Origin: Eledone cirrhosa
Taxonomy: Eukaryota
Length of the DNA stretch: 64,000 nt
Reading direction: 5' to 3'
Assembly: GCA_964016885.1 (NCBI GenBank)
Contig: OZ024741.1
Coordinates: 222,890,001 to 222,954,000, forward strand
Position numbers and translations under genes: made by a program. Positions 1-56,759 of this stretch are shown here, piece by piece. Below the pieces are notes generated by a model. The model did no database searches. It was not told where the DNA came from and worked only from the letters and a program-made list of their open reading frames with translations. Positions within the stretch are counted from its first letter, which is position 1. Each line of letters begins with the position of its first letter.

Positions 1-1098
1 GAGGGAAACTCTGAAGTGAAACCTGCAGTTTACATTATTGCTAATCATCTTAGGCTTGTCATCAGATAATAATCACTAAGACTTCGGGAGTGGCACTCAT
101 GTTATGCAACTGTTTCTCACTGTAATCCATGATGTACAGATGTCTCTTTTGCAATCTTCTCATCTGCTGTTCTCTCTCTCCAGACAATGTAGGACAGGAC
201 TCTGAATTTTTAGCACCATATAGACGTTGATCCAATTGCTACAGCTATTGGGTTTTCACGTAAATTCGAGCCAATAGAATAGCACCACTTCCGTCCGTAG
301 TTTCGTCACACCGTTCCTGTAGTATTGGCGGGAACAGTCATGGTTTTTACAGTCGCATCTGCTGATGTCTTACATTGGAGCGTTGTCAGTGACTGGTCAG
401 CTTGCTTGGGCTTGTCATCAGATAATAAGTGTTTCTACTTTTGGCACAAGGCCAGCAATTACCCAGTACATTACTGGTACTTTATTTTATCGACCCCGTA
501 AGGATGAAAGGCAAAATTAACCTCGACTGGATTTGAACTCAAACCGTAAAGGGACGTAACTATGCTAGAAAGCATGGCGTCCAACCCTCTACCGATACTG
601 TCATAATAATCACTAAGATTTAGAGAGTGGCACTTTAATCAATCATCTACCTATAATAATTTGCAATGTGTTTTTATTTGCTGTCACGAAAACGAGAGAC
701 TGTGGAAATTGGAGACTGTCGAACTGCAGGGACAAAAAGTGGATGAGAAAGAGAGGGGAAAGAAACAGTGGGAGAATGAAAATAAAAATGAGTGGAAGTG
801 AGGGAATAAAATTCTGAGTAAATTGCTACAAGAATTTTGAGACTAGTCGAAATGAAAGGTATAACGTAGTTATATAGTATACAATTTAGAATCCCAGGAG
901 GATGAAAAGTAATATTGACTATAGCAATAATTGAACTCAGGGCGTAAAAAGCTATCACTAAATGTCGCAAAGTCAATCTACCGCCTTCCAGAAAGAGCAG
1001 ACAATACAATAAATATCAGGCGTCATACAAGATAATGCCAAAAAATATTTCAAAAATAAAAGAATTTTATTTTAAAAAAAAAAGAATATATATTTGTG

Positions 1099-1877: not shown

Positions 1878-2326
1878 ATATTGTTATACTTTGGGAGGGT
1901 CATGTTGCCAATAAGAAACACACGCACCAGTTGCTTTCACTTCAATTTATTATATATTTATAAATTTACAAATTTATAAATTTCTGGTTGGTTGGTTGGT
2001 TCCACAACCAGATAGTTGTTTATATATAGTCATAGTCCTTTCGTCACACACTCTGTGACCTCTTCAGTGACTGGGGATTCCTTTCTTTGTTTCTGTGCCT
2101 CTCCTTTCTCTGTCCTACGCCATTTTGTTTCTGTGTGTGTGTTGTGTGCTCAGTTTGCGCATGCGCCACATCCGGGTGTCTGTGTGTGTTTATGTTCATT
2201 TATCTATTTGTTTATTTATTTATTTATTTATTTACATTTATTATAAATTTATAAATATATAATAAATTGAAGTGAAAGCAACTGGTGCGTGTGTTTCTTA
2301 TTGGCAACATGACCCTCCCAAAGTAT

Positions 2327-10760: not shown

Positions 10761-11813
10761 ATTACTGATCTCGCTTTTCAAACTAAAAACTTGGTTTTGA
10801 AACCTTTTTATATATAAAATACTACAATTAGCAGTCATTTTTTTACGGCACGGGGCCACCTAGTTAAGAATATTACGCAAACAGCCACTATTGTTATCAC
10901 AATGTAGGACGTTCTCTGACATGTAGAACACCAGGCGAAAGCCGCCATTTTGTCTCAATGGACAGAATGGAGAAAATGTTTCCCCAGAGAATATCGAGGA
11001 AGACGCATTGAAATAACAATTCAACTCCCGGAGTTTACTCCTGCGGATGGCCAACTCCGTCTATATTTTATTTTTTGTTTATTTGATATAATAAATTCTT
11101 TTTAAGCTTATTTTTTTATATCTGAACTTCATTTGAACATATACAATTTAATTAGCGTAAAATTTTATTTATGTGATAGGGTCCGGGAAAGGCACCATAA
11201 GCAATTTATGCTCCTTTAAGAATCAACAAATGTTGGTTTGTCACTCAGATTTTTATGGCATACGAGGCCCCTGCTCAGAAGTCTCCGCTGTAATACCTTC
11301 AACGACAAACCTGTCGGAAAGCGACTGACACTTCAACAGCTTGCGATCTTCAACTTGTCGAGCAACAAAACATGGGTCTCCCATCGAATAGACCAAGTTG
11401 CCGTTGAAGAAAGTGTTGCAACACGTCGTATCTGTTTCCGTCACTTGATGGCGGTCGTGATTAGGCATCGTTTTGAAGGGATTTAGTCGAGTGTAAATAA
11501 TGGTTTTAGATTTAAGCACAAGGCCAGCAATTTTGGAGGAGGGGAAAACGATTAAATCGACCCCAGTATGTGATTGGTACCTTATTTCATCGACCCCGTA
11601 AGGATGAAAGGCAAAGCTAACCTCGGCGGGATTTGAACGCAGAACCTAAAGGGCTGTAGCTCTATGCTGCAAAGCATGGTGTCCTACGCTCTACCGAAAC
11701 TGTCAATCCACCGCCCTTCCAGTGTAAATAAGCAACAATGATGACGATTACCACCACCCCCAGAAGCATTGAGAAACTTGAAATGTGTGCGTCCCAGAGC
11801 AAATAACCATAAT

Positions 11814-12000
11814 TGTTTCGACTGTTGGCACAAGGCCAGCAATTACCCAGTGCATTACTGGTACTTTATTTTATCGACCCCGTAAGGATGAAAGGCAAAG
11901 TTAACCTCGGCTGGATTTGAACTCAGAATGGCAAGGGCCGTAACTATGCATCAAAGCATGGCGTCCGGCCCTCTACCGATACTGCCAATCCACCACCCTT
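11814..12000 (-). mobile_element. tRNA-derived Meta-domain SINE (representative)
   Basis: tRNA-like head with B box GAGTTCAAATCC; GCCTTTCATCCTTACGGGGTCGATAAAATAAAGTACC core; 16-bp TSD AGCAAATAACCATAAT. Other copies at ~429-601, 11501-11720, 12801-12900, 13270-13415, 22630-22818, 28285-28457, 37530-37692, 41748-41939 and 44363-44570. Confidence 0.85.
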
Positions 12001-12349: not shown

Positions 12350-31279
<18,930 letters not shown>

Positions 31280-37525: not shown

Positions 37526-38095
37526 AGTGAATTACCCCAGTATTTTACTGGTGCTTTATTTTTTCAACCCAAGAACGATGAAAGGAAAAGTTGACTTTGG
37601 AGGGACTTGAACTCAAAAAGTAAAGAGCTAGAAGAAATACTGCAATGGCATTTGATCCAACTATCGAGCAATTTCACCAATCCACACCATCCTTAAATTT
37701 AATATCATTATAAACAGGAGAAATGCGATACAATTGGAATTGCTGGAGTGGTCGCCAGCCTATTCATGACATGGTGGAATAGGCAGTTTAAACACAAATT
37801 AGCTGCCAATAACGTTTACTTGGTGATGTACTGGCATTAACCATGTCATGAAAAATATTCCACACATTAACGGTCAGATGACTGAGGAACACATGATGAT
37901 ATTGATACAATACATAACTAACTGAGTATAAAAGTAATCTAAGACACCCCTGTAAGAGATTGCCTGTTCTCAATACAGAGTTGTGGATAGATGCAGGACC
38001 ATAAGTATTACATGTGTAAAGTTTGAAAACAATGGGTTGGGTGGTTCTCGAGTTTTAGGGAGTTGGACAGACATTCTCTGTTTTAGATATATAGA

Positions 38096-38878: not shown

Positions 38879-39275
38879 CTAGCAGAAAACCACCCGGTGG
38901 GTGGTTTTCTGCTAGTCGATATATATTTAACACAAACAGACACACACACACACACATATATACACCCATGTTCATATTTTGAGATGCATTATTCTCAAAT
39001 CAGATTATTATCTCTGACAGGAAGGACCAGTTTATAATTTTTAAGAAAAATTAAGCAAACACATATTTTAGGAAACTTATGAATTCCTGTACACACACAC
39101 ACACAAACACTTACACAGATACACACGCACAGACACACACAAACACTTACACAGATACACACTTAAACCTATATATATGTATATATATAGAGACACACAT
39201 AATATACATATATAATATATATATATACACACCTATATATAAAACACACGCATATACGCATACACACATATATAT

Positions 39276-40932
39276 ATATACAATATTAAAGAAATGGAAA
39301 CTATATTTATAAAACCATATTTATTTCATTATACATATTTCAGGGATACCATATTAAAAATATGGCATGCCTTCAGATAAAATACAATATATAAGCAGTT
39401 TTATAAATAAATTTGACGTACCATAAATATTGATCAACTTTTATGTAAGAAGTTGGTTTGGTAGTGAGATGTTTATAAATATTTAGTGTTAAGCACAGTT
39501 AGAAAGAAAGATGGAGAAAAGGAAGAAATATATGTAAAGAAAAACAGAGAGAGAAATAGTGAGGTGAAAAATGAGAGGCAGCTGAGGCAACAGATGAATA
39601 ATAATAATTCATCATACAAATTGAGAGATTTAGGAGGGAGGGAGTACTGTAATTATTTATTTATTTAGTTATAGTGTTAAGGAGACGGAGAGAAATAAAA
39701 AATAAATAAAGAGAAAACAGAGAGGTAGAGAAAGATAGAGGTGGGGGGGAAAAGAGGTAGACCGAATAATAATAATTATATATGGGGAGGTGAGAGAAAT
39801 AGGAGAGAAGTAAGAGAAAACAATAGAGAAGCTCGAGAGGCAAAGTTAAAATAACCGATACTTAAATTTCATCATGTATAGAGGGAGGAGAAGAAAGAGC
39901 TATATCTAGAGAGAAGGATGATAGATTTACAACTTTACGTTATGTCCTATCAATTTGAATTATCAATTCATATGAATTGGGTATTATAATGTAAATATCA
40001 ATATTCATGAATGAGACATAGATATATAATGTGTGAAAAATAATGACCATATGTTTAGTTTAAAAATTCTTAGGTCGATGTACCAAAAACTGAGATAAAA
40101 CTTCAAAAAATACGGAAATACATAAGTATATATGTACTTTCCGGAAAAGTACATATATACTTATGAATTTTTAAACTAAACATATGGTCATTATTTTTCA
40201 CACATTATATATCTATGTCTCATTCATGAATATTGATATTTACATTATAATACCCAATTCATATGAATTGATAATTCAAATTGATAGGACATAACGTAAA
40301 GTTGTAAATCTATCATCCTTCTCTCTAGATATAGCTCTTTCTTCTCCTCTCTCTATACATGATGAAATTTAAGTATCGGTTATTTTAACTTTGCCTCTCG
40401 AGCTTCTCTATTGTTTTCTCTCCTATTTCTCTCACCTCCCCATATATAATTATTATTATTCGGTCTACCTCTTTTTCCCCCCACCTCTATCTTTCTCTTT
40501 ATTTATTTTTTATTTCTCTCCGTCTCCTTAACACTATAACTAAATAAATAAATAATTACAGTACTCCCTCCCTCCTAAATCTCTCAATTTGTATGATGAA
40601 TTATTATTATTCATCTGTTGCCTCAGCTGCCTCTCATTTTTCACCTCCTCACTATTTCTGTTTTTCTTTACATACATTTCTTCCTTTTCTCCGTCTTTCT
40701 TTCTAACTGTGCTTAACACTAAATATTTATAAACATCTCACTACCAAACCAACTTCTTACATAAAAGTTGATCAATATTTATGGTACGTCAAATTTATTT
40801 ATAAAACTGCTTATATATTGTATTTTATCTGAAGAAGGCATGCCATATTTTTAATATGGTATCCCTGAAATATGTATAATGAAATAAATATGGTTTTATA
40901 AATATAGTTTCCATTTGTTTAATATCGTATAT
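39276..40932. repeat. Giant near-perfect inverted repeat (~790-bp arms)
   Basis: 39276-40069 is the reverse complement of 40165-40932 with few indels; inner hairpin at 40121-40165. Confidence 0.95.
40821..40886 (+). ncRNA. Type-I hammerhead ribozyme motif
   Basis: UAUUUUAU CUGAAGA AGGCAUGCCAUAU-UUUUA-AUAUGGUAUCCCU GAAA UAUGUA UA AUGAAAUA. Confidence 0.65.
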
Positions 40933-41013
40933 CTACTCCAAAACTTGTTGAGTGCTTTATATCAGTTATAAAATATTTACTTGTTGTAACCCAACAATTT
41001 TAAATAAAACTTT

Positions 41014-41049
<36 letters not shown>

Positions 41050-42199
41050 GCTCAGCCCCAGTGAGTTGGTTAAAACACCAAAAGCCAGTCTTAAAGTTGT
41101 CGTCTGTAAATTCAAAGAACTCGGCTGTGTTTGGCTAGATCTCCATGGTAACTACTCCAAGGTTGCGCGTGCCATGGCTGGGAACGCAGGTGTCACATGC
41201 TGGCCTAGAACGCTGGTTGTTGGAATCAGTGGTCGACGACATAACATATATATTATGTGTGTATGGAATAGTATAAATATTTCTTCGTATTTACTAACAT
41301 ATATATATATATTATATATACATACATTATATATATATTATTAATATATTACATACGTACATTTATTTATATATATATATATTTATTAAAATAAAAGATT
41401 AAAGTTTAAGCAAAGAATCGCTGCTTTCAACCTGAACGGGATCTTCTGAAACTAACCAATATATATATATATATTCCTGGTGATTTCTCAATATATATAT
41501 TACACACACAGAAATGTATATATATTTCTGTGTGTGTATATATATATTACACACACAGAAATGTATATATATTTCTGTGTGTGTATATATATATATATTA
41601 CACACACAAAAATGTATATATATTTCTTAGAACAAAATTATTATTAATGTTTTGCTGTTCATAACAATTGGAATTGAAAAATTACTTTTGAAATTATTAG
41701 TTATTTTACTAATGCTTAGATATGTAAAAATGAAGCAATGTTTCTAATAATTGTTTCTACTTTTGGCACAAGGCCAGCAATTACCCAGTACATTACTGGT
41801 ACTTTATTTTATCGACCTCGTGAGGATGAAAAGCAAAGTTAACCTCGGCGGTATTTGAACTCAGACCGTAAAGGGACGTAACTCCATGCTATGAAGCATG
41901 GTGTCTGACTCTCTACAGATTCTGCCAATCCACCGCCCTAATGTCTGTACGTAATGAGGGAGTGAGAGGGGAGAGAAAGGCAGAGGTGAAGTGACGAACT
42001 GACTCTCTCCTCCTCCTCTATCTCCCCATTCGTCACAGCGATAGAGGGGAGGAATGTTAGTGTGTTACAAAGAGTGAGAGTGAGAGAGACAGACTAAAAG
42101 AGAGGGATAGCTGGAGCGAGAGAGAGAGATAGCAACCACGCGCGCACGTGTTTCCACTGTCGGACAGACAGACAGAGAAATTGCTGGTTATATATTATA

Positions 42200-42975
42200 A
42201 GGAGATTAAGAAAAAGACCAATAAAATCAACTCCTGGTATGATAAGCAATAAATACCAGTGTAATATTCATCAATGTAACCCCCAGAGACGAACTAGCTT
42301 ACAGATTTAGAAGGGCTCTAGACGAACTAAAATTAAATATTAAGATAATCGAAAGACCAGTTATTCCCATAAAAACCCTTATTAGTAAAAGATATCCATT
42401 TCAAAGAACCCCCTGCATTGATAGGAAATGCATAGTCTGCAAGTTAAGCCCCCAATCTAACTTCAAAACTAGAAACAGTATATAGCATAAGATGTACTGA
42501 GGGACAGTGTAGGAATAAGAACACAACATACATAGGTGAGACAGCCTGTAGCATAGGAGAAAGGATAAGTGAACACTGGTGAGAACGCCAAGATGGGAAG
42601 AACTCATCAGTACTCCACCAATATGCCAAAATAGAACATAAATGAGTGGAATAGCAACATCACAACTAGTAATTAAGGACAAAATGAAGATATATAGAGA
42701 CACACACAGATAGAACAAACAACTAGCTAGGGAGAAGTAAATAAAAACACACACACCCAGATGTAACGCATGTGCAAACCAAGTACACAACACACAAAAA
42801 CAAGATGGTGTAGGACAGAACAAAGAGACAAAATAAAAACTCAGTCACTGAGGAGGTCACAATGTTTGACAATATACAAACAACCATCCAGTTATCCAAC
42901 CAGAAATTTAAAAGTGAAAACCAACAGGTGCATGTGTTTTTATTGGCAGCATGACCCTCCCAAAGTATAACAATA
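42200..42975 (+). mobile_element. Penelope-like element 3' fragment (GIY-YIG endonuclease + pLTR)
   Basis: C..C..C...IYSIRC...YIGETACSIGERISEH remnants, followed by sequence homologous to the reverse complement of ~1878-2200, with a decayed hammerhead at ~42843. Confidence 0.8.
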
Positions 42976-45900
42976 TGATTTAGCTTATATATCTTATCTA
43001 CTCACATATACAATGTTAAGACAAGTCTGCATATGAGAGTACAAGTCAAGCCTCAACCATAAGTCTGAATAGGGTGATACCAATGAAACTTACAAAAGAG
43101 CTGAACTGTTCCTCTCTACTCCTTAATCATCCCAATTTTAGATATTTGTCTATTTACCTTTACACAGATATATGTGTGTATACATAAAGGTGTGTGGTTT
43201 GTGGTGGGAAAGCTCAGCTCGCAATAAGGTCGTAAATTTGATTCCCAACAACTTGTGTCCTTTAGCAGGATACTTTATTTCACATCCACCCTTGCCATAT
43301 GTTGTTATGCTAAAGCTCCCTGAAAGTTGCTTTGTGGGTGCATGGGTCTGGAGTGCTTAGCCACTTGCATGTTGGTTATGTGAGTAGGCTGTTCCATTGG
43401 TCACTTGTTGGCAGATCCCGATTGAGGTTCCATAGCATGTGTATGCATGGGAGTACATGTGTATGAGGATATATATATGTATATGTGCTGATGACGTATA
43501 TATATGAGTGTGTGTTTGAATGACTAAAATGACTTTTCCATGCAATTGCTTTAGTTTCAATGAATGGTCTCAGATCAAGATTCTTGCCAGACAAGTACAT
43601 CTGTGTCTAAAATGACTTCATAAGAAAGTTTGTTAAAATACTAAATCTTTCCGTATTGATTATTTTCAAACTAGTTTAAAAATCATACAATGTTTTTCAT
43701 TAGAAATATGATAATGAAGAGATTTAGAAACATACTAATTGAAGTCCCTGAGAAATTGGGAGTTTGATAACAGAAGTCAACAGTAAACACCCACAAAACA
43801 ACTTAAGGGTTATCGATGAGATTTGTGACTGAGGTAAGGGACTAGTAAGATGGGGTGTGATATGATTGTGAAATAATACTGTAGATAGGGCATTTAAAGG
43901 CTAAGAGACAGGCAGGAAAAAGTACCAAGTAGCTAGATATCAGGTTTAGTTATCAAGAAGGGAAGCAGAAAGTAAGATTTTTGCCAATGTTCCAGATGGT
44001 AAAGCAGTATACTAACAAGTATTATTACTCACTTGGCCTTCCATACACTTTGCAAGGTTGTAATGGTGAGTAGGATCAAGTTGCACAAATACAAGTAACC
44101 TTAACCAGATAACATGTTTTTTGTTTTTATAAAGTAAAATATGACAAATTATTCTTTTAAATAGTTACTTGGAGGTGAAATTAGGAATTGGGGAATCTTG
44201 GCATCAAATCGCTAACCTGGAAATTGTTTGGGAATTATTTTTAGGTAAAAGAGTAAATAATGATTAGTTCTATTGTCTAACAAACAACCACAAAGAGATC
44301 TGGAGTGAATTCATTCAACAGATGAAGTTTTATTTTCATTGTTTTATGGTGCCAAGCTTAGAAAGGGGTGGTGGATTGGCAGGATTGGTAGAGCATCGGA
44401 CATGCTTTGCAACATAGAGTTATGGTTCTTTACGTTGAGTTCAAAATCCCGCCAAGGTTAACTTTGTCTTTCAACCTTATGGGGTTGATAAAATAAAATA
44501 CCAGTAATGCACTGGGATCGATTTATTCAACTTTCCCTCTCCCCAAATATTGTTGTCCTTGTGCCTAAATTATTGGTAGAGCATGTTTAATTACAACTTT
44601 TTGAGTTCAAATCCAACTAAGGTCAACTTTGCTTTTCATCCTTCTGGGGTTAATAAAATAAAATACCAGTAAAGTACTGAAGTTGATATAATTGACTTTT
44701 TCCTTCCCCAGTTTGCTGGCATTGTGCCGATGTAGGAAAAAATTATCAATTCTGGTTTGGCTCCCCTACCTTTTTTCTAACAGAACTGATCATTAAACTT
44801 TCTCCTTACCATCGATGTAATTTTAATAATTAAAGTTTCTTGGCTCACAATTGTGTCCTTGGGTATATTTCCTACTCTTTATAGCGAAGTCTGACCTTCT
44901 AAGGGGCCAGGAAATACTTTTCTACAATTAATACTCTGCAAAGCTCAAATGTGATCCAATGGAATACTGCTACTAAATCTTGGATTATGTAGCTGCTATA
45001 CAAACCTAGGGCTCTTGGTTATTTCAGCTTTTTGGTCTTTCTGTAACCCTGGCTATGCTGCGAGTATGTTGACTTGCCTAAAAAAGTATTAGAGGTAAAT
45101 TCCAGTGCCCCTTGTAGTATGTATGCGTCTTCCCCCACCTATTATAAAAAAAATATAAATTGCATTTATTTGTTCGCATTTTATTAAAAATAAAACTTTT
45201 TTTCATATAAAAAAAATAAGAATAATCATAGACTGCATCCATAAACAATCAGTTGACTGATTGATATGAAATTGCTCACCAATATGCCTCAACTCTAGCC
45301 CTCATTCACAGTTTCCTCACTATGTTTTTGTAACACTACTACAATAGCTTCTGTGAAGGCATGTAACTAGATGGTTTGGGTATACAGCTCTTGATCATAA
45401 AGTCATGAGTTCAATTCTGCTCCAGTCCATTCAGCTGGAAAAAGTTAATTGTACTTGTAATTCAAGAGGCCAGCACAGAATCTTCCAGAAAACTACCATA
45501 TATACTTGTATATCAGCTGAGAAATAGGATTTTAAAAATCGATAGTAAAATCGATAGTAAAATGGGGGTGAACTTATATTCGAGGTCAATATTTCCCACG
45601 TAAATAAGGTGCTAAAATATCTGGAGTGATTATTTCACAATAAAACAGCTTTTTTACATTTACTACGTGGTTACTGGTGTTATCTATTCATTCTCTTGAA
45701 AATATTTCCAATAAATATTTATAATTTGAACCTTTTAATACATACATATTCCATACTCATACATGTTTTTCCCTGACTTAATACTTTTTCCTTCAATCTT
45801 ACATAAGATTGAAATCTTACTTCTGACTTATTTTATTATTCTCGTTTCCTTATCACTCTGGCTCCTTTCCCCTCTCTTCTACTCTAAATCCCTAAACAAA

Positions 45901-46519
45901 GTTCTCTTATTCAATCTCTTGCTTTCAACTACTCTGAGTGGCCAGAAATAAACAAAAATTCGAGAAACTTATTAAAATTTTATAAAATGGATGAAATGGT
46001 AAAAAAAAAAAGCATGTAATGGAATAGTGAAACAAAAAACTATATTCCAAACGGCACTCAAAACATTTAAAATATCTTCGTCTTTGCCCTCTTATTCCTG
46101 AGAGGGTTGTGGGGGAAGAGTCCTCAAACACTCCGTTCAGTGGGTCCTGTCAGAAGCAACCATCTCCAACTGATCTGGTTGGATCCCCAAGCGTGACCAG
46201 CCAAGCTCATGGATGCTATCTGGGTCTGTTGCTGATTGGTTTTGCCCGTAAAATCTGTCAAGCTATTCTTTCCTGAGACATTCTAACCACATGCCCATAG
46301 TATCGGAGTTGTGATCTCTCAATTCGGAGAATTAGCATTTTAAACATCAAAATATTAAAATTTCATAAATATATTTTATACTCATGCGAATTTCAAAACC
46401 ACGCCATCTAAATATGTTTAGCTGCCAAGACTTATAAACGATGTTTGAATTTTTGTTCATTTCTCAGACATAAAATAGGGGGTTGGCTTATATTTGAGTA
46501 TATGTGGCATATCATTCAA

Positions 46520-46900
46520 AATGGGACAATAGTGAGAATTGGTGGGAAGAGACCAGATGGTCTTACCCTTTGTCTACGGGTAAGAGGTAGATGTCTCATT
46601 TGGGACACCACAGTTAGTAACTCTTGCACCTTCCTACATTCTGGATGCTGTGGTAAATGTGAAGGTGACTGCTTCTGTAACCGAATGGAATAAAATTCTA
46701 AAGTACCAGGAATTATCAGTTCGTTATTTCTTCCAGCCTGTGGCGTTCAAGACGTTTGTGGGAGCTGACAGTAAAGTTTTTGTCATCGTTAGCAGCTCGT
46801 CTTACCGAAATATTAGGTGATGCCCGTGATGGTGCTTGATTGTTTTTGGTGCCTTGGCCTTAAAATATATTACGATGTCCCTTGTGGTATGTGACCGCTC
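46520..46900 (+). mobile_element. Restriction-like endonuclease relic of a CRE/R2-group retrotransposon
   Basis: GKRPDGLTL...GRCLIWDTTV motif. Confidence 0.65.
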
Positions 46901-47379
46901 GACGAACTTGATGTTTCTTTTTTTTTACTTTGATTGTATATTTTTGTGTCTTATATTCATAACGTTGCATGAATTCTATTTTTTTTAAACTTTGTTTCAA
47001 TTCAATTTTTAACATTAAATATTGTATTTTTTGGAGAGATTTTTTTCGTGTTATTTTAAAAGCTAATTTCAAATACATTAATTTCTATAAAACAGACACG
47101 TTAATATATATGTTTATATTCAAAGAAGGAAAGTATTATTCTATAAGGATTTCGTTTGTAACAATAATATCCAGTAATGTAAGTATTTAAAGCAGGAAAG
47201 TAGTCGATAGTGAGTGTAAACTGCGTTATGCAGTATTGCCAACACTATCGGAAATAAACAAAATGATTGTCAAGTCAAGTTTGGAACATAGCTTTGCTCA
47301 ATCTTGTAATAACGATGTCAGCTGCAAGGGAGGTAACTCTAAAACAAATTTCAATAATTGAACGAGACTTGAACGTGAT

Positions 47380-47563
47380 TTTAACGGACGGAGAAGAAAA
47401 TACGCCACGTTCACTGAATATTGTTGTCAACCTGCTTACTGTCGCGTTATTACTCTCCCAATAAGTATTGTCTTTCGGCAGTAATCTGTCAAGCTAAAGA
47501 AAGAAAGCCTAAGTGGAAGGCGAATATCTGAGTATATATATTTTGGGAATTGCTTAAAAAAAG
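47380..47563 (+). promoter_or_regulatory. Candidate COPB1 promoter / non-coding first exon
   Basis: Unique, relatively CpG-rich segment ending in a strong donor AAG|GTAAGC at 47564; start coordinate approximate. Confidence 0.4.
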
Positions 47564-48520
47564 GTAAGCCGCATCTGTTTCTTTGCTAACACTTTCACAC
47601 ACCCTCACACGCGTAATTTACCAGAGGCCGGAGCTAATTAACACGTTACTGTCAGGAACCACTTACAAACAAACTCAGTGACCCATTCCTCAGCAACAGT
47701 GCGATAATAAACATTACCTATGCCACCGAAATTCGCCGACTTCGATTACATTACATACACATACTGCGAATCAACAAGAGGCTACGTGGTCCTTCAACTT
47801 TTTAGAAATAGCAGCTAAATATTTCAAATTACACTGCCATCTTATAAAAGTGGTGACAAATTAGATAATGTAAGCCTATGCCTGGGTCCGGCTTGAATAC
47901 ATTTAATCATTGCTTTATCGAGGCCACAAAATTAATGGTTCTAGAAGTGACAGAACTTCGGTTAACATCATTCATGACGCCCATTGTTATGAAATCAAAT
48001 TTTTATACTTCTTTACTGCTTGCCGTATATGGCTAGATTTTTTTTAAATGTCAGTATACCACGTCATACTATTGAAAACATTACTGTTAAGCCATCCTCT
48101 AGTTTGACATCTATTTGTTTAATATATATATATAAATGTCAAATGTTAGTTTAAATAATGTTCAAAATCTGCTGTTGAAGATCTATCATTTTATAGATAT
48201 TAAATAAGTATCCTCTGTAAATACAAACAATATATTTAACATGTTTCTGACTATGTTGAGTAAAGTTTTTTCTGAATAATGGTTAAAGAAATTAATACTT
48301 TTATTAAAATATCTTATACATATAAACACAATTTATATAGTAAATATGGTTTACAAAAGTAACAAATTAATTTTTAAAAAATTAATCAGAGAAGAAATAT
48401 ATATATATATATATATATATATAGCAAAGTAGTAGTGCTGGTGCCACGAAAAAACGAACCTGATACATACTGTGAAGTGGTTGTCATCAAGAAAGGCATC
48501 CAGCCGTAGAACTCTGATAC

Positions 48521-48935
48521 ATTGAAGCTCCGACGCCTGGCAACTGACTCGGTAAACACCCACAAAATTGTTAACCATCTTGCCAACAACAACCCTGAGT
48601 ATCTTTTTGATTTCCATGTGTCTAACACACGTGGGCATGCCCACAAAGTCAGAAAACAGCACAGTTCCCATGACTTTCGGAAACACTTTTTCACGCTCAG
48701 AGTTGCTGAAGCATGGAACAAACTACCTGCATCAATTGTTAGCTGTCGAGACACTGCATCCTTTAAAACTTCCATGCTTCCCGAGATTCGCCAACACTAC
48801 ACCTAATGTTCCCCCTCCATACACATACACACATGTATATCATGACTCATACACTATTAACTTCCCTGACATTTGTATATTATTCTATGTACTATACATG
48901 TAGCTGAGCACGTTACACAATAATTTCATTATTAT
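48521..48935 (+). mobile_element. CR1-group LINE 3' fragment
   Basis: LRRL..D...HKI...NTRGHAHKV...RKHFFTLRVAEAWNKLP; ATT-rich tail. Confidence 0.85.
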
Positions 48936-49261
48936 TTTATTTTAAAACGGAACATAGAGCAAGACAATCATCTGACCTGTTAACCCATGCGAGCATGGCA
49001 CATAGACATATATATCATCATCATCAACATGATTTAACGTCCATTTTCCACGTTAGCATGGGTTAGACAGGTTCTATTTGAGGTAAGCTGGGTCAATTGA
49101 TCGAGTCTTACTCATATATGACTGTTTCTGGCTAGGTTTCTACGGCTGGATGCCCTTCCTAACGCCAGCCACATTTACAGTGTGTGCTGAGTGCTTTTTG
49201 TTGTGACACCTACACGACCATTTTACAGTGTGGGCTGGGAGCTTTTTGGCATATATATATA

Positions 49262-49880
49262 TCATCATCATCATTTTACGTCCGCATTTCCCTGCTTGCA
49301 AGAGTGGGACAGGTCCTATTCAGCACAGCATCTCTCCACTTGTCACGGACCTTCGTCATCTCCACCGTGAGCTTCAGCGATCTGAGGTTTGCTCTCACCA
49401 CCTCCGCCCATGTTTTCCGTGGTCCACCTCTACCACGTCTCCCTTCAACTGGCATTTCCTCGCACTTCTTCACTGATCGGTCATCCTCCATGCACATCAT
49501 ATGTCCATACCATCGCAGTCTCCCCTCCCGCACACTACAATCTGTCTCTCTCAACACATCCATGCTCGGTCGTTCACGCACATTGACATTGCACATCCAA
49601 CGGAGTATGCTTGCCTCATTTCTCTCCAGCCGTCGCATATCCTCTGCAGTTGCTGCCCATGTCTCACTACCATGCAGCATCGCGCTCCTCACACAAGCAT
49701 CATATAACCGGCCTTTCGTACGCAGAGAGAAACCCTTCGTCAGCAGAGGAAGCAGCTCCCTAAACTTCTTGCAACCCGTCCTTATTCTAGATACTATGGT
49801 CTCGGAACACCCCCTCCCATGCTAATCTGATCACCTAGGTACCGGAAGCTATCAACCACTTCTATAGCACCCACCTGCAT
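49262..49880 (-). mobile_element. RTE 3' fragment
   Basis: RSAMLHGSETWA...LRWYGHM...GPRKTW; (GAT)n tail. Confidence 0.88.
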
Positions 49881-49925
49881 TTGAAAAATGTATACATATA
49901 TATATATATATATATATAAGCATGC

Positions 49926-50206
49926 AGTACAAGTCGACAGGTTGTAATTCACTTTGTTTATTCATAATCGCTTTTATATATATTTTGATAACTGTTATGC
50001 AACAGCAATGACCTCATCAGATTGCAAAAAGTTGAACAGAGAAAACAGAAAAACATAAATAAAAAATAAAGCTTACTTCTGTTGTTTCGATTGATGTTTT
50101 CTGTTCAACTTCTAGCTGTCTGATGATGTCATACCAGTTAGCACCAAAATTTATATAACACTGATTATGGATAAACGAAGTGAATTATAACCTGTTAACT
50201 TGTACT
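49926..50206. repeat. Diverged inverted repeat with CTGATGA in both arms
   Basis: Arms ~49926-50046 and ~50096-50206. Confidence 0.75.
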
Positions 50207-50309
50207 ACTTGTTTATAAATATACTCAGGAGTAAACAGACCCACTTGTGTACTTTGCCGTGTGCATACTAAAGTGTCTGTGATAAACTAACACCTACTCT
50301 AATTAATGT

Positions 50310-50341
<32 letters not shown>

Positions 50342-51028
50342 ATTCCACAACAATTACTGAACTATATGTGTTTTACCTAAAATAGGATTTTCAACCTGTA
50401 TATGGTTGTCGTGAGAATGATATAAAAAAGTGCAAGGTGATCAAAATTGATGGAAGCTACGGAGGAGGGGATAAATACTGACCTGGGACGAGGTGATAAA
50501 AGCTGACCTTGCACACTTGCACCTCTCTAAGACAATGACACAGGATCAAGATCTTTGGCGCTATGCAGTAATAGAGAAGGCCGCCTTCTCTTGCACACGG
50601 ACTTAATCTTACATTCAGTAGGCACCCCTTAATCCAATATCTCCCTCCCACTTCCACCCACACCACCCTTACTCTGTAAAGTTATGTTGGTTCTACAAAA
50701 CATTCAGCCCACACTGTAAAATGGTCATGTAGGTGTCACGACAAAAAGCACCCACTCCACATTGTAAAGTGGTTGTGTAGGAGACACGGCAAAAAGCACC
50801 CAGCACACACTGTAAATGAGGTTGGTGTTAGGAAGGGCATCCAGCCAGAAACAGTCCTATATGAGGGAGACACAGTCACCTGACTCAACTTGCCTCAAAA
50901 GGGACAAACCCATTTAACCCATGCATCATGATCTGAAGGCATAAGCTGGCCATATACTGGAATCAGCCTACTTTTTTTTCATTGAAGTATTTATCTATTT
51001 GATCTTCACACTTGTCATAGATATATAT

Positions 51029-51440
51029 GGCACATGGCTTAGTGGTTAGAGCATTGGGCTTGCAATCGAAAGGTTGTGAGTTCAATTCTTTGATCGGGTG
51101 ATGTGTTGTTTCCTTGAGCAAGACCCTTTATTTCACATTGCTTCAATTTACTCAGCTGTAGAAATGAGATGATAGGACTGGAGTCCCTATCATTCCACTG
51201 CAAAGTGGTCGTGGAGGTGCCACGGCAAAAAAGTACCCAGCCCACACTGTAAAGTGGACATGTAGGGGCCACGGAAAAAAAAGCATCCAGCACTCACTGT
51301 AAATGAGGTTGGTGTTAGGAAGGGCATCCAGCTGTAGAAATCAAGCCAGAATCAGTTCCCGTATGAGCAAGACAAGGTCAGCTGACCTGACACTGCTCAC
51401 AACAGGACAACCTGTCTAACCCATGCTAGCGTGGAAGAAC
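51029..51440 (+). mobile_element. tRNA-derived SINE with RTE 3' tail (second copy ~56357-56671)
   Basis: A/B boxes TGGCTTAGTGG / GAGTTCAATTC, CCTTGAGCAAG core, then sequence shared with the RTE 3' UTR. Confidence 0.8.
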
Positions 51441-51639
51441 CTACAACCATACACGGGTTGAAAATCCTATTTTAGGTATAACATGTATCTTCAAGTATAG
51501 CTTAGTAATTGTTGTGGAATTAACTATATATATCATCATCATCATCATCATTAGCGTCCGTGTTCCACGCTTGCATGGGTTTGGACGGGGGTTTTCCCAC
51601 TTGAGGCAAGAGTGGTTGTCTTGCTCGCATAGGACTGTC

Positions 51640-51672
<33 letters not shown>

Positions 51673-51679
<7 letters not shown>

Positions 51680-51987
51680 TAAAAGGAATTCCAACTTTGT
51701 TTGATTTACTCGTTTTATTTACAATCCTTTAACATTTATAATGGTATTAGAATGAAATAGTATGGTAGAATATTAAATGTTAAGTTTGCAATTTTCAACA
51801 GTTGAAAATTGCAAACTTGACTGTCACCACACATTATGGACCTGAAGATTGCGAAAGCATGAAAGTACTTGTTCAATTAACACTTAATATTCTACCATAC
51901 TATTTCATTCTAATACCATTATAAATTTTAAAGGATTGTAAATAAAACGAGTAATCAGACAAAGTTGGAATTCCTTTTATTAATATA
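51673..51987. repeat. Fold-back element with inner hairpin and hammerhead
   Basis: Arms 51673-51783 and 51877-51987; perfect hairpin at 51782-51818. Confidence 0.9.
51837..51875 (+). ncRNA. Minimal type-I hammerhead ribozyme motif
   Basis: UGGAC CUGAAGA UUGC-GAAA-GCAU GAAA GUAC UU GUUCA; palindromic GUAC in place of helix III. Confidence 0.7.
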
Positions 51988-51989
51988 AT

Positions 51990-52625
51990 CTTCTATACAC
52001 AATCATACACACCCGTGTCGAACAACTGCTGTCAAGGGTGGGACCGATCCGGTTGACCACCGAGTCTATTGAAACGATCAAGCCGCCTCCCCTCTTCAAA
52101 AACGAAGGAGAGGCGGTGTTTCTGTGTGTAATAGCCATGGCAAAAGAGGTTGTATGGTGGACGCGTCTGAAAGGACTGAGGTCAGACACCTTTCTCTCTG
52201 GCCAACAACTGGTCCGTTTCTTCCGATATCATTTCGGAAGAAGGATCAGGATGGAGAGAGAGAGATGCTGCACCCCAGCCGTTTTTATGAAAGATGGGTG
52301 AAAGTGGCGAGAATGGCCCGTGTGAATGGGCCTTCACTCTACATCAGACTATAGGTGAGGAAGATGAAAGATCAAGGGAGCACCCCCTCTCTGTGCTCGT
52401 GAGGAGAAGAGTTGCACACTTTTTTTCGGGGGTGCATGCGACCCCCCCCCCCCCCAAGGCGCCTCCTCCCTATTGAGGATTTTGTTATTAAATTTATTTT
52501 TGTTATATTTTATTTTATTTTTATATCTTGTTATTGCCTCCTCCTTATTGAGGACGCCTTTTTATGTAAACTCCCCCCATTGTACTTGTCCCACTTTTTT
52601 ATGCCCTGGTGGCAAATAAAAAGAA
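51990..52625 (+). mobile_element. Tx1/L1-like LINE 3' fragment
   Basis: AMAKEVVWWTR...FFRYH...IRMERE...FYERW, then pyrimidine-rich UTR and AATAAA. Confidence 0.55.
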
Positions 52626-53009
52626 AGTTATATATATATATGCACAACACGTATATATTTACATACATGCATATTGATAAGGAATGAAACTGACATCTAT
52701 GTAAGATATTCTTTTTAAAAAGTATAAGAATGATAGAATGAAATAACTAGACAATAACTTCAAAAACTTTTCTGTATATTGCTATGCTTCACCTCCATCA
52801 CCTTGTTTAAATCTATTTCTCACTTTCATCCTCCAAAGTTTTCCCTCTCCACATACTTCCTGTCTAATTTTAGCTATCTCTCTCTTTCTTTTCTCTCTAT
52901 ACTCACTAATGATACTCTTTCTCTTTATAGTTCTCCAACTCCCATGCCTACTATCACTTTGATCCTCCTCACATACATGCAAAGTCACAAATATATCACC
53001 CCCTCTCTC

Positions 53010-53046
<37 letters not shown>

Positions 53047-53251
53047 ATATATATACATTATTATATTTGGGGAGGGTCATATCGTTATAATATTGCCAGA
53101 AATAATAACAGAACACACTCACTGTTTGGTTTCAATTGGATTTTGCTCTGTATCTTTTATATCTCCATAGTTAATTTATCTGGCAATCAATGTTTATCAT
53201 TGATTGACCAACAGTTAAAAATACAAATATATATATATATATAGTCTAGTC

Positions 53252-53295
53252 TATCAAAGTTCTTTCGTCACACATCTGTGACATCATCAGTGGTA
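53252..53295 (-). ncRNA. Minimal type-I hammerhead ribozyme motif
   Basis: UACCA CUGAUGA U GUCACA-GAUG-UGUGAC GAAA GAAC UU UGAUA; same family as 2028-2072. Confidence 0.6.
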
Positions 53296-53378
53296 CTATT
53301 ATGTTTCCTCTCATTGTTTTGTAATGCCTGCGCCATTGTTATTTAATTTATATATATATATATATAGTATAATTAATA

Positions 53379-53572
53379 TTTCATACACATAACATGTATG
53401 CGCAACCTTGGGTTTCGGGGTCCAGTTATGGCTACCACTGTATAGTAGAGGAGCTATTTCAATACTGGCCTCTCATTTTGTCCTGGTACCCAATAAGAGG
53501 CCAGTTTTGAAACAGTGAATACAGTGGTGGCCCTGAAACCTAAGGACATGCATACATGTTAAGTGTATGAAA
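53379..53572. repeat. Fold-back MITE-like element
   Basis: TTTCATACAC.TAACATGTATG...CATACATGTTA.GTGTATGAAA with nested internal complementarity. Confidence 0.65.
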
Positions 53573-53646
53573 TAAAAAATATACTAAATAAGCTCTCTTG
53601 CAATAGATAGAACATTGTTTTCCTTGACCTTTTATCTATGGATATT

Positions 53647-53649
<3 letters not shown>

Positions 53650-53713
<64 letters not shown>
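53650..53713. repeat. (CA)n microsatellite
   Basis: Direct observation. Confidence 0.98.
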
Positions 53714-53714
<1 letters not shown>

Positions 53715-54597
53715 CTCTTCTCTATATATATAAAACAGAGGATGTCTGTCTGTGTAAATCCCTAAAACTCGAAGTACCCAACCGATTTTTTTTCAAACTT
53801 TGCACATGCGTTACTTATATTTCTTGAAGCACAATGGGATAAAAAAAATTCTAATTCTTTCTGCCCTAGGGCCCACATTAGGCGAAAAACCGCATTTTAA
53901 AGGCATTTTTAGGCTTTTTTGAAGCGTAACTTAAAGATAATCCAGCCGAAATTTGTAGCACACATTAGTTAGTCCCCTCACATTGCTGTGGACAAAAAAT
54001 ATTTCCGATTCCATTAATGGTTTCTAGGAAATTTACGAATTAGCATTGGGCTTACATGTCATTTTCATTTTCAATATAAATGTTACTTAAACATCGTAAG
54101 TAGCTTATAATATTTCGTTAAAAATTTGGTTTATTTAACAGAGAGCACAACACTTACTTTTAAGCAGGACCATTTTGGGGGGATTGAGGAAATGAAGAGA
54201 ACCTTAAAACTTTTGTCGGCGCCTTGTTGACGCTTCGTGCTTTCATCACACGCAAATCCGGGCCTTGTGTACGTTGCCGTGTTATTGACACCATAAAACT
54301 CACGTCTGTGCTACTTCTTCTAAGACCCCTTTTATTGCACCTATACCGCAGTATGAACGTCCTGTGCAACTACGCCGAACAGCGGTTGTGCTAATTCTGC
54401 GGTGACCCCTTTTGTCGCACGCTGATTTCGTCATCTCAATATCCCTACTTGTTTTTCACACAATTGACTACGTCGCTCCGCAATCATTCCCTAAGAATAA
54501 GGGAATTCAAGAAGTATACAGCTACATTCCTCAATCTTTGCATATGCATGTTGCTCTTTCACGTTTCTTACCCCGTGCAACCCAGGTCCTGCTGCTA

Positions 54598-54598
<1 letters not shown>
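53714..54598 (+). mobile_element. Non-autonomous Helitron
   Basis: TC..TCTATATATATAAAACAGAGGATGTCTGTCTG start, GCTGCTAG|T end; same family as the two above. Confidence 0.7.
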
Positions 54599-54652
<54 letters not shown>

Positions 54653-54771
54653 ATGTGTGTAAAAACATGTTTTTATATAAGTTGTATAAGTTTCATATAA
54701 GTTATATGAGTTTTATATAAGCTCAAAGTTATCAAGGTTTTATTGATGTTGATTAATTTCAGAAGAAAGAC

Positions 54772-54862
54772 ATGTCGCTTGCAGAGCAGGCATCGTACAC
54801 TCTCATCAATGTACCAACAGATGCAGAACCACCTTCTGAAATGCAGCTGAAGCATGACTTGG
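54772..54862 (+). CDS. COPB1: Coatomer subunit beta, first coding exon
   Basis: MSLAEQASYTLINVPTDAEPPSEMQLKHDL|gtaag matches the beta-COP N-terminus; the acceptor tttcag ending at 54762 implies an upstream UTR exon. Confidence 0.93.
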
Positions 54863-54919
54863 GTAAGATTTTTTCTCTAATTTTCTTTACGAATTAATTT
54901 CGCTTGTGATATGTTTCAG

Positions 54920-54962
<43 letters not shown>

Positions 54963-55119
54963 ATACTTGGGAAGGGTCATATTTGCGTAATATTGCCAGA
55001 ATTAATAACAGAACACACTGTTTGGTTGGTTTTCGCTTCTCGCTGTCTTTTATATCTGCGATCTAACTTACTCGGTCCTCAATTTCATATACAATTTCAT
55101 ATAAAAAAACCTCGCTAAA

Positions 55120-55172
<53 letters not shown>

Positions 55173-56120
55173 TAAAGGTTAATTAGTCTCTAATTCTTGA
55201 ACATCATCTCAATGAGAGGAATCTGTCAGAGAAGTAATAATCTATATACTACTAAAACTCTGTAATTGCTTCCTTGCTTGCTTGTCTGTAGCCAAAAGGG
55301 CGCATAATGGGAAAATACTTTGAATGGAAGTTGACACTGAAATGGGAATACAAATAGAATAAAACAAGTTTCACGTAAACCGGAGCACAGATTTCCAAGA
55401 TATGTGATTTTTCCGGGTACCTTCATAAACAGAGAGATAGAAAGAGATAGTGGTTGTGAGAGAGTAGATTGAAAGAGAGACATAAAGAGAGGGAGAGGAG
55501 AATGGAAGAAAGACAGAGAGAGAGCTGGTGGTGTTGTGTGTGTATATATATATATATATATGAGTCTGTGTGTGAATATATATATATGTGTGTGTGTCTA
55601 TGACCAGTGTATATAGATCACACATACAAATACATACATACATACAAAGAGAAAACATGCTGACTATAATTATAGCAAGTGGAAGGTAAAGTTCTGTTGT
55701 AGTAGTATTTTGAAATGTTCTTGGTTTTAGGATCAAGTGATGACAGCAGCTGAGAAGAGATAAGTTTATGGGTTGATGAGGTACTTACAGACATTAGTGT
55801 GGTATAGAACTAAGAAGGCTAGAATGTACTTAATGATTATATTTCTGTGGTGATTCGTGCAGAGTATTATTACTCCAAGTGTTTACAACATAGGAATTAC
55901 AGCGTACTCGCAGCAGCACTAAGGAAACGCCTTGTTGAGTCAAACTTAGCCAAGCGTTGTAACTGGACTACACCTAAGTGGACTGTATATAACTATTATT
56001 TGTTACCCATATATATATATATATATACACATATATATATACTATCCGGGAGCTTCCAACAGTAATGGTTGCATTCCTTAAGGGTATGTCAATATTTATT
56101 TATAAAACTGCTCTATATTA

Positions 56121-56185
56121 TATTTTATCTGATGAAAGCACACCATAATTTAACTTGGTGTCCTTGAAATATGTATAATGAAATA
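56121..56185 (+). ncRNA. Type-I hammerhead ribozyme motif
   Basis: UAUUUUAU CUGAUGA AAGCACACCA-loop-UGGUGUCCUU GAAA UAUGUA UA AUGAAAUA; covaries with 40821-40886. Confidence 0.65.
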
Positions 56186-56759
56186 AATATGGCTTTATAA
56201 ATATAGTTTCCATTTGTTAATATCGTATATACATATATATATATATGTATATATATACATATATATATGTATATATATACATATATATACATATATATAC
56301 ATATATATATACATATATATATACATATATATATATACATATATATACATATATATAGAGCATTGGCCTTGCAATCAAAAGGTTGTGAGTTCAATTCTCA
56401 GACTGGGTGATGTGTTGTTTCCTTGAGCAAGACACTGTATTTCACATTGCTCCAGTTTACTCAGCTGTAGAAATGAGATGATAGGGACTGGGGTCCCTAT
56501 CATTCCACTGCAAAGTGGTCGTGGAGGTGCCACGGCAAAAAAGCACCCATCACTCACTGTAAATGAGGTTGGTGTTAGGAAGGGCATCCAGCTGTAGAAA
56601 TCAAGCCAGAATCAGTTCCCATCCCACCCTTGCAAGCAGGGAAAAAGCGGACGTAAAATGATGATGATGATAGTAATAATAATAAATTTGAAGACTAAAA
56701 TCCAAAGAGTTAAGGGTGAAAGCAGCGATTCTTTGCTTAAACTTTAATCTGTTATTTTA

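What the first reader, a model, noticed from the sequence alone, without database searches (positions are those of the whole stretch)
40821..56185. Hammerhead pair with compensatory stem-II changes and a conserved C-C mismatch
Seen: 40821-40886 and 56121-56185 share CUGANGA...GAAA, identical stem I (UAUUUUAU/AUGAAAUA) and an AUA cleavage triplet. Stem II differs but still pairs: AGGCAUGCCA/UGGUAUCCCU versus AAGCACACCA/UGGUGUCCUU (G-C to A-U, U-A to C-G, G-U to A-U), with the C-C mismatch kept at position 4. The helix-III segment UAUGUA is a near-palindrome. Known: Penelope-like element (PLE) hammerheads replace helix III with short palindromes and cleave as dimers. Inference: a structure-selected ribozyme family with an unusually long, A-U-closed stem II.
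Basis: partly seen in the sequence, partly recalled or inferred. Interest (0 to 1): 0.75.

Follow-up and report, generated by a model that had tools for sequence, protein, structure and literature searches.

The report
Octopus retrotransposon hammerhead with fixed mismatch
Both motifs are hammerhead-shaped RNA elements at the tail ends of two separately inserted, broken Penelope-like jumping genes, a known pairing predicted to cut RNA only as dimers, and across their many relatives in this likely octopus genome one unpaired C·C spot stays fixed in an otherwise fast-changing stem, likely as a docking point that helps the RNA fold for cutting.

Summary
Both motifs are type I hammerheads in the 3' pseudo-LTR of Hydra-clade Penelope-like elements (PLEs), inserted into (TA)n. 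They belong to two subfamilies and are independent insertions, not a working pair. A third, inverted copy with a broken core lies at 39322-39384. One pattern finds 85,259 such motifs in the 3.0-Gb genome (control 0). Family A links to a 750-aa RT + GIY-YIG ORF with the Hydra marks. Stem II covaries strongly (8 of 9 pairs change on both sides across 20 subfamily representatives). Pair 4 is never paired (18 C·C, 2 C·U). C·C also recurs in two sequence-unrelated families, one with an RT only 48% identical; four other families lack it. Common helix III variants are all self-complementary, as dimer cleavage requires. The 'A-U-closed' claim fails: the closing pair varies. Hammerheads of Hydra PLEs are published; the fixed mismatch is absent from the 26 published rows and I found it in no paper. 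The scan noted it before on other DNA of this genome (e1-9848614). No RNA data; cleavage is untested, and copy ends show no spike at the cleavage site.

The parts
40153..41016 (+). 5'-truncated 3' end (3' UTR, pseudo-LTR and tail) of a Hydra-clade PLE, subfamily A; no ORF remnant in the window
   Evidence: 40153-40935 matches the 3' UTR of the longer copy in L061 at 90.7%; tail shared with the other copies; tblastn of the ORF against the window finds nothing
40821..40886 (+). Hammerhead 1 (type I): stem I 8 bp, CUGAAGA, stem II with C·C at 40839·40863, GAAA, helix III UAUGUA, predicted cut between 40878 and 40879
   Evidence: 81.6 bits with the model built from these families
40783..40791 (+). 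Upstream GGUAYGUCA motif kept in subfamilies A-F; role unknown
40798..40902 (+). Predicted extension of stem I (40798-40807 with 40893-40902, 10 bp, beyond an internal loop)
   Evidence: Folds (z -2.78 for copy 1; only -0.77 for copy 2)
41017..41049 (.). (AT)n target at the 3' end of copy 1
39273..40148 (-). Inverted, 5'-truncated second copy joined to the 5' end of copy 1 (typical PLE arrangement)
39322..39384 (-). Hammerhead 3, in the inverted copy; 3 bases missing from the CUGANGA core, predicted inactive
56042..56225 (+). Short 3'-end fragment of subfamily B between two (TA)n runs (56009-56041 and 56226-56357)
56121..56185 (+). Hammerhead 2 (type I): CUGAUGA, stem II with C·C at 56139·56162, helix III UAUGUA, predicted cut between 56177 and 56178
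   Evidence: 86.3 bits
56082..56091 (+). Upstream GGGUAUGUCA motif of subfamily B

Best explanation
These are type I hammerhead motifs in the terminal repeat of Hydra-clade Penelope-like retrotransposons, predicted to cut after AUA only when two copies pair through the palindromic helix III, and the fixed C·C at pair 4 of stem II is likely a selected docking point that takes the place of the usual loop 2. Shown: the sequence, the link to the RT-endonuclease ORF, the (TA)n insertions, the covariation, the invariant mismatch and the self-complementary helix III. Inferred: in a partial tandem (pseudo-LTR, ORF, pseudo-LTR; about 4.1 kb apart in L061) one transcript carries two hammerheads, which would swap strands, form helix III between them and release a unit-length RNA whose 5' end lies 188 nt before the ATG. 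Inferred: stem II is far longer than the 4 bp of canonical hammerheads, so its end loop would lie too far out to touch stem I; a pyrimidine mismatch three pairs from the core would give a soft spot near where canonical loop 2 begins, to be gripped by stem I (which has an invariant U at 1.7 in the main group) and probably stabilised by the element's own protein. The two window copies are solo fragments and likely silent. Reverse transcription starts downstream of the cut site, on uncut or re-ligated RNA, because copies keep the whole motif.
For: PLE link: L061 has pseudo-LTR, ORF pieces, 1.7-kb 3' UTR, second pseudo-LTR and an inverted 5' copy; L077 has an uninterrupted 750-aa frame; RWR, DKT, CxCX5C (5 of 6 ORF pieces examined), no CxxC between IIY and YVG, CxxC and CxH round the late E and N match the Hydra definition (PMC8557442 section 11). 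Covariation: 8 of 9 stem-II pairs change on both sides over 20 representatives, score 0.399 against 0.222 shuffled, 0 of 500 shuffles, slid controls 0.04-0.16; 9 of 9 over 84 distinct model-aligned hits. Mismatch: 0 of 20 paired (18 C·C, 2 C·U) while pairs 1-3, 5, 6 are paired in 19-20 of 20; parsimony changes 0 and 1 at its two sides against 1-5 at neighbours. Genome: C·Y in 78,734 of 85,259; C-G in 278, the first 100 listed being spread over all subfamilies; the one odd C-G copy belongs to a family whose other members have C·C or C·U. C·C recurs in two unrelated families, one with RT 48% identical to family A; the C·U family has an endonuclease region 46-49% identical. Helix III: UAUGUA 197, UAUAUA 45, UGCGCA 15, UACGUA 10 of 275 copies, all self-complementary, with an A-U to G-C double change; strand-swapped dimer 5.8 kcal/mol below two monomers. 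AUA is a working natural triplet, the slowest of four tested (PMC1636495 abstract). A PLE hammerhead needed the element's protein to cut (PMC11167929 passages).
Against: No cleavage or expression data. Copies that begin at the cut site are not enriched: 51 matches against 21 and 39 at two control junctions, and 0 of 128 local alignments start there. In PMC11167929 hammerhead mutants did not affect insertion in vitro and no RNA reads ended at the cut site. PLE hammerheads cut poorly even as dimers (PMC4209133). The UAUGUA duplex is weak (-2.2 kcal/mol) and the predicted minimum-energy folds of monomer and dimer are not the active fold. Four other hammerhead families in the same genome are fully paired at pair 4, so the mismatch is not needed for the kind. 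Turning C·C into a pair needs a transversion, whereas nearly all observed compensations are transitions; 6 of 58 flank columns are also invariant; representatives are related, so shuffle counts are not probabilities. U1.7 is absent in the L117 family that has C·C. The docking role has no direct evidence.
Confidence: 0.55

Rival explanations
1. The mismatch is a recognition mark for the element's RT-endonuclease (RNP assembly or choice of the reverse-transcription start), independent of cutting; cleavage matters little.
For: Copies end at two fixed sites, +57 (42 of 128) and +144 (51 of 128) after the cut site, so the protein engages this region on uncut RNA. In PMC11167929 unprocessed RNA was the main template and the protein bound near the hammerhead. 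No spike of copy 5' ends at the cut site.
Against: Catalytic core and dimer palindrome are kept and covary, which fits selection for cutting, though my patterns demanded the core. Lineages with RTs about 48% identical share the mark while other families lack it; their relationships were not resolved.
Confidence: 0.22
2. The mismatch weakens stem II so that an upstream GGUAYGUC motif can pair with its 5' strand (G opposite the invariant C), a folding switch that delays cutting during transcription.
For: The best upstream duplex pairs C4 in 11 of 16 groups; energies reach -10 kcal/mol in subfamily C, equal to or better than the native strand; the C·U family has GUGUUU upstream, matching its changed 5' strand.
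Against: Only 3 of 16 groups beat shuffles at p<0.05; the motif stays the same in subfamily B where pairing breaks; families of the L231/L241 type have no such partner.
Confidence: 0.08
3. The mismatch is an inherited accident or a DNA-level constraint (for example an internal promoter in the pseudo-LTR): tolerated, not used by the RNA.
For: Repair needs a transversion; about 10% of flank columns are invariant too (6 of 58); fully paired families exist. PLE pseudo-LTRs contain promoters (PMC6765202 passages).
Against: An unpaired site should drift at least as fast as its paired neighbours, yet shows 1 change where about 6 are expected (hand arithmetic, Poisson p about 0.02); the same state recurs in families with unrelated stems, loops and flanks, including a U-A at pair 3 and a 104-nt arm. 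Its two Cs lie 22-100 nt apart, which a DNA motif would not keep.
Confidence: 0.15

Closest known systems
Hammerheads of Hydra-clade Penelope-like elements, including Hydra-1_Obim of Octopus bimaculoides (Craig et al. 2021, PMC8557442; sections 3, 11, 12, passages, File S1 and S2 tables, parts of S4/S7 seen)
   Same: Type I hammerhead near the 3' end, short self-complementary helix III, variable and often weak pair next to the core, C-terminal GIY-YIG ORF with RWK/DKT/CxCX5C and no CCHH, (TA)n insertion.
   Different: None of the 26 Hydra rows of File S2 shows a mismatch inside stem II as printed (read by eye); their stems are 3-8 bp against 9-14 here; Hydra-1_Obim has another hammerhead and is 2.5 kb, whereas this unit is about 4.1 kb with a 1.7-kb 3' UTR.
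Minimal PLE hammerheads (Cervera and De la Pena 2014, PMC4209133; parts 1-2 of 4 read)
   Same: In pseudo-LTRs, long helix II, palindromic 15.2-16.2 and loop 3, many consensus families with compensatory changes, mostly solo copies from truncated PLEs, dimer-dependent low activity.
   Different: They stress a conserved G10.1-C11.1 and an extra base between 9 and 10.1; here the direct register has A-U, G-U, A·C or G-C. A bulge in mid helix II is described for Drosophila virilis, not a fixed C·C.
Protein-assisted hammerhead of the Anolis Poseidon PLE (Frangieh et al. 2024, PMC11167929; passages)
   Same: Hammerhead in the pseudo-LTR, two reverse-transcription start sites downstream of it giving a tail, AT-rich targets.
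   Different: Other PLE clade; there the ORF starts inside stem II, here the ATG is 188 nt after the cut site.
Non-LTR retrozymes with canonical type I hammerheads (PMC7229834 passages; bioRxiv 10.64898/2026.07.22.740005 part 1 of 5)
   Same: Type I, weak palindromic helix III, very high copy numbers (axolotl about 120,000), a U·U mismatch at the base of helix II in one axolotl family.
   Different: Retrozymes are short non-coding tandem repeats with loop 1-loop 2 contacts; these copies are dispersed fragments of an autonomous element, 0 of 60 with a direct neighbour within 1.5 kb.

Membership tests
Type I hammerhead ribozyme | Core CUGANGA, GAAA, UH | tested here: met
   position 7 varies freely (U 140, A 76, C 19, G 5 of 240)
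Type I hammerhead ribozyme | Helices I and II round the core, open end at helix I | tested here: met
   97.5% and 93.3% of cells paired, with covariation
Type I hammerhead ribozyme | Helix III, stable or formed in a dimer | tested here: met
   A15.1-U16.1 and 15.2-16.2 invariant; self-complementary hexamer in 269 of 275 copies counting G-U; only a 2-nt loop as monomer
Type I hammerhead ribozyme | Conserved G10.1-C11.1 pair | tested here: not met
   A-U 13, G-U 7 of 20; natural exceptions are known, such as U·U (PMC3088659 passages)
Type I hammerhead ribozyme | Canonical loop 1-loop 2 tertiary contact | tested here: inconclusive
   No short stem II loop; U1.7 invariant in 20 of 20 but mostly paired; role of U1.7 from PMC11875169 passages
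Type I hammerhead ribozyme | Self-cleavage after H17 | not testable with these tools
   No bench data; indirect junction test negative
Rfam hammerhead families | Score above threshold | tested here: not met
   No hammerhead family listed
Penelope-like element | Single ORF with RT and GIY-YIG endonuclease | tested here: met
   750-aa frame in L077 with YRDD, IIY and YVG; identified by motifs and by likeness to published Hydra ORFs read by eye; Pfam and PDB gave no named match
Penelope-like element | Partial tandem pseudo-LTRs, inverted 5'-truncated copy, tail | tested here: met
   L061; window 39273-41016; two 3' ends; 18 of 60 with an inverted partner
Hydra clade | RWK motif, DKT, CxCX5C linker, no CCHH, late CxxC and CxH | tested here: met
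   RWR, DKT, CNCRNKSKC in 5 of 6 ORF pieces (L077 has lost the first C), CDLC, CRH
Hydra clade | Insertion into (TA)n | tested here: met
   3' ends of L001-L030 and L031-L060 run into (TA)n, apart from tandem junctions
Hydra clade | Placement in an RT tree with reference Hydra elements | not tested
   Reference ORFs were seen only in a paper's supplement and were not entered into tools
Hydra clade | Generally shorter than 3 kb | tested here: not met
   Unit about 4.1 kb; a tendency in the paper, not a diagnostic
Naiad | N-terminal endonuclease, CxC, CCHH | tested here: not met
   Endonuclease is C-terminal and lacks CCHH
Non-LTR retrozyme | Short non-coding head-to-tail repeats, each with a hammerhead | tested here: not met
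   0 of 60 with a direct partner within 1.5 kb; linked to an ORF

The most novel reading that the evidence does not exclude
Long-armed PLE hammerheads form a distinct structural subclass in which a fixed C·C (or C·U) at the fourth pair of stem II replaces the loop-loop contact of canonical hammerheads, as a docking site for stem I or for the element's reverse transcriptase, kept across lineages whose proteins are under 50% identical. It would be a new tertiary or protein-switch motif and a ready handle on why PLEs keep slow ribozymes.
Probability: 0.35. Interest if true: 0.65.

Novelty: new variant of a known kind. Interest (0 to 1): 0.4.

Why it matters
What PLE hammerheads do is open: they cut poorly in vitro, and one needs the element's protein. 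This genome supplies tens of thousands of natural variants that fix every pair of stem II by covariation and single out one unpaired position as invariant. That gives one precise mutation to test for a tertiary contact or protein grip. It also shows a large hammerhead group that Rfam models miss entirely. The element and the ribozyme kind are known, so the gain is a detail of mechanism, not a new system.

Tried and rejected
Rfam: no hammerhead hit. Pfam and PDB: no informative match to the ORF. Sequencing runs: no RNA holder listed; laying four contig runs of unknown kind gave nothing on expression or RNA ends; the thin cover in X5 and X6 is not used. Junction test for copies that start at the cut site: 51 against 21 and 39 at control sites, no spike; none of 25 inspected had an intact core directly upstream, but the native TATA matches the (TA)n target, so they cannot be told from ordinary truncations. 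Upstream motif as a partner of stem II: inconclusive. Shifted register with an extra base after A9: rejected by eye, because subfamily C would get A·C at pair 2 while the direct register covaries. The two motifs as a functional dimer pair: rejected, different subfamilies, 15.3 kb apart, each with its own (TA)n ends. Naiad and retrozyme: rejected (membership table). A possible C-G family (L207): a private change. Lunse et al. 2017 on PLE hammerhead dimers is not held; I know it only through the review PMC6765202, and it or its supplements may already show such a mismatch. Searches for prior report: 'hammerhead ribozyme'+'C-C mismatch'+'stem II' 0 papers; 'hammerhead ribozyme'+'octopus' 5 papers, 4 listed, only Craig 2021 relevant; searches showed none by title or abstract; the O. 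vulgaris repeat paper PMC13282606 has no 'ribozyme'. Subscription papers are not searched.
Full report
Observation. Both motifs stand as described. Each has an 8-bp stem I, CUGANGA, a stem II of three pairs, a C·C mismatch and six or more further pairs, GAAA, UAUGUA, and UA before the 3' strand of stem I. The copies share 134 of 151 bases. A third copy lies on the minus strand at 39322-39384 with three core bases missing. Rfam finds no hammerhead here.

What carries it. The window lies on a 416-Mb contig of a 3.0-Gb genome. It is likely an octopod: the best hit that names an organism is Argonauta hians (41% identity). Copy 1 has at least 33 copies identical over 166 bases among the 40 candidates scored of 856, so subfamily A is young. 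Its copies end in (TA)n, are 5'-truncated and often have an inverted copy attached. L061 holds a partial tandem: pseudo-LTR, ORF pieces, a 1.7-kb 3' UTR, a second pseudo-LTR about 4.1 kb from the first, and an inverted piece. L077 has an uninterrupted 750-aa frame. RWR, DKT, YRDD, a CxCX5C linker (5 of 6 ORF pieces), no CCHH, and late CxxC and CxH motifs fit the Hydra clade as defined in PMC8557442 section 11. Copy 2 is a 184-base 3' fragment of sister subfamily B between two (TA)n runs. The two are independent insertions.

Abundance. A narrow pattern has 19,489 exact matches, a wider one 85,259, both with 0 in the control. That is about one per 35 kb, so two in a 64-kb window is the expectation. 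The number is large but not a record: the axolotl has about 120,000 hammerheads (PMC7229834 passages).

Covariation. I clustered 275 copies from the fetched loci at 91% identity. Copies fetched because they carried C-G were left out. Of 24 clusters with two or more copies I kept 20 and dropped 4 near-duplicates; 36 singletons were not used. In their alignment, 8 of 9 stem-II pairs change on both sides, 93.3% of cells pair, and no shuffle of 500 reaches the covariation score; slid partners score far lower. A model built on it aligned 102 hits from 89 loci, where 9 of 9 stem-II pairs change on both sides (that alignment leans to the model). The representatives are related, so these are not probabilities.

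The mismatch. Pair 4 is unpaired in 20 of 20 (18 C·C, 2 C·U); pairs 1-3, 5 and 6 are paired in 19 or 20 of 20. On a tree from flanks and loops its sides change 0 and 1 times, neighbours 1 to 5 times. By hand, 1 change against about 6 expected gives p near 0.02, but 6 of 58 flank columns are invariant too. Genome-wide, 78,734 of 85,259 motifs have C·Y and 278 have C-G; the first 100 of these are spread over all subfamilies, as post-insertion mutations would be. One odd C-G copy proved to belong to a family with C·C. A looser scan of the flanks found C·C at the same pair in two unrelated families: one with U-A at pair 3 (L117, L205), one with a 103-106-nt arm (L017, L066, L082), whose RT is 48% identical to family A. 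Four other families are fully paired there. So the mismatch is very likely selected in these lineages, yet not needed by all PLE hammerheads.

Closing pair and helix III. The pair next to the core is A-U, G-U, A·C or G-C. Published Hydra hammerheads often have U·U there, and U10.1·U11.1 is known to be tolerated (PMC3088659). Helix III is UAUGUA, UAUAUA, UGCGCA or UACGUA in 267 of 275 copies, all self-complementary. A strand-swapped dimer is 5.8 kcal/mol below two monomers, but it is not the predicted minimum and the UAUGUA duplex is weak.

How it likely works. In a partial tandem, one transcript holds two hammerheads that would pair through helix III and cut after AUA, releasing a unit-length RNA that starts 188 nt before the ATG (inference from PMC4209133 and PMC6765202). 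Genomic copies end +57 or +144 after the cut site (42 and 51 of 128 alignments), so reverse transcription starts on uncut or re-ligated RNA, as in the Anolis element (PMC11167929). Solo and inverted copies, the great majority (18 of 60 with an inverted partner, 0 of 60 with a direct one within 1.5 kb), lack a same-strand partner. For the mismatch I favour a docking role: canonical hammerheads have a 4-bp helix II whose loop touches helix I; here the loop is far out, the mismatch sits where the canonical stem ends, and U1.7 is invariant in the main group. This step is inference only. Rivals are a pure protein-binding mark, a switch with the upstream GGUAYGUC motif (inconclusive) and neutral inheritance.

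Against. No RNA holder was listed, so expression and cutting are open. Copies starting at the cut site are not enriched (51 against 21 and 39). PLE hammerheads are slow in vitro, and in one element they were not needed for insertion.

Novelty. Hammerheads in Hydra PLEs, including one from an octopus, are published. The fixed mismatch is not in the 26 published Hydra rows (by eye), and my searches found no report; Lunse et al. 2017 could not be read. The scan has noted the same mismatch on other DNA of this genome (e1-9848614, unreviewed; looked up after my own tests). Verdict: a new variant of a known kind, interest 0.4.

Noticed in passing
window 2025-2075 (-); also L080: Another hammerhead-like motif (CUGAAGA, fully paired 6-bp stem II after an extra G, GAAA, UA) of a different family; helix III is poorly self-complementary in the window copy.
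   Followed up: no
window 49972-50028 (-): Decayed hammerhead-like motif, 20.6 bits with the model, GAAA lost.
   Followed up: partly
L017 +746, L066 +9646, L082: Hydra-type family with a 103-106-nt stem II that keeps C·C at pair 4; helix III CGAUCG.
   Followed up: partly
L005, L012, L019, L034, L047, L052, L076, L118, L123: At least four more hammerhead families, each with its own palindromic helix III and fully paired pair 4; some have 50-55-nt arms.
   Followed up: partly
window 40783-40791 and 56082-56091: GGUAYGUCA motif kept 19-40 nt upstream of the core in subfamilies whose other flanks differ; could be a promoter element, a protein site or a pairing partner.
   Followed up: partly
L038, L044, L121 and others: Subfamilies with A·C next to the core have expanded (18 of 240 copies), so this closing mismatch did not block spreading.
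   Followed up: no
window 425-603, 11562-11987, 12800-12978, 22627-22805, 28319-28474, 37536-37691, 41747-41939: Dispersed SINE-like repeats of 150-180 bases; a tRNA-like weak match at 51033-51092 heads another repeat that also follows copy 2 at 56356-56620.
   Followed up: no
window 41491-41627: 47-base tandem repeat with strong fold-back symmetry; its miRNA hits in Rfam are below threshold and likely chance.
   Followed up: no
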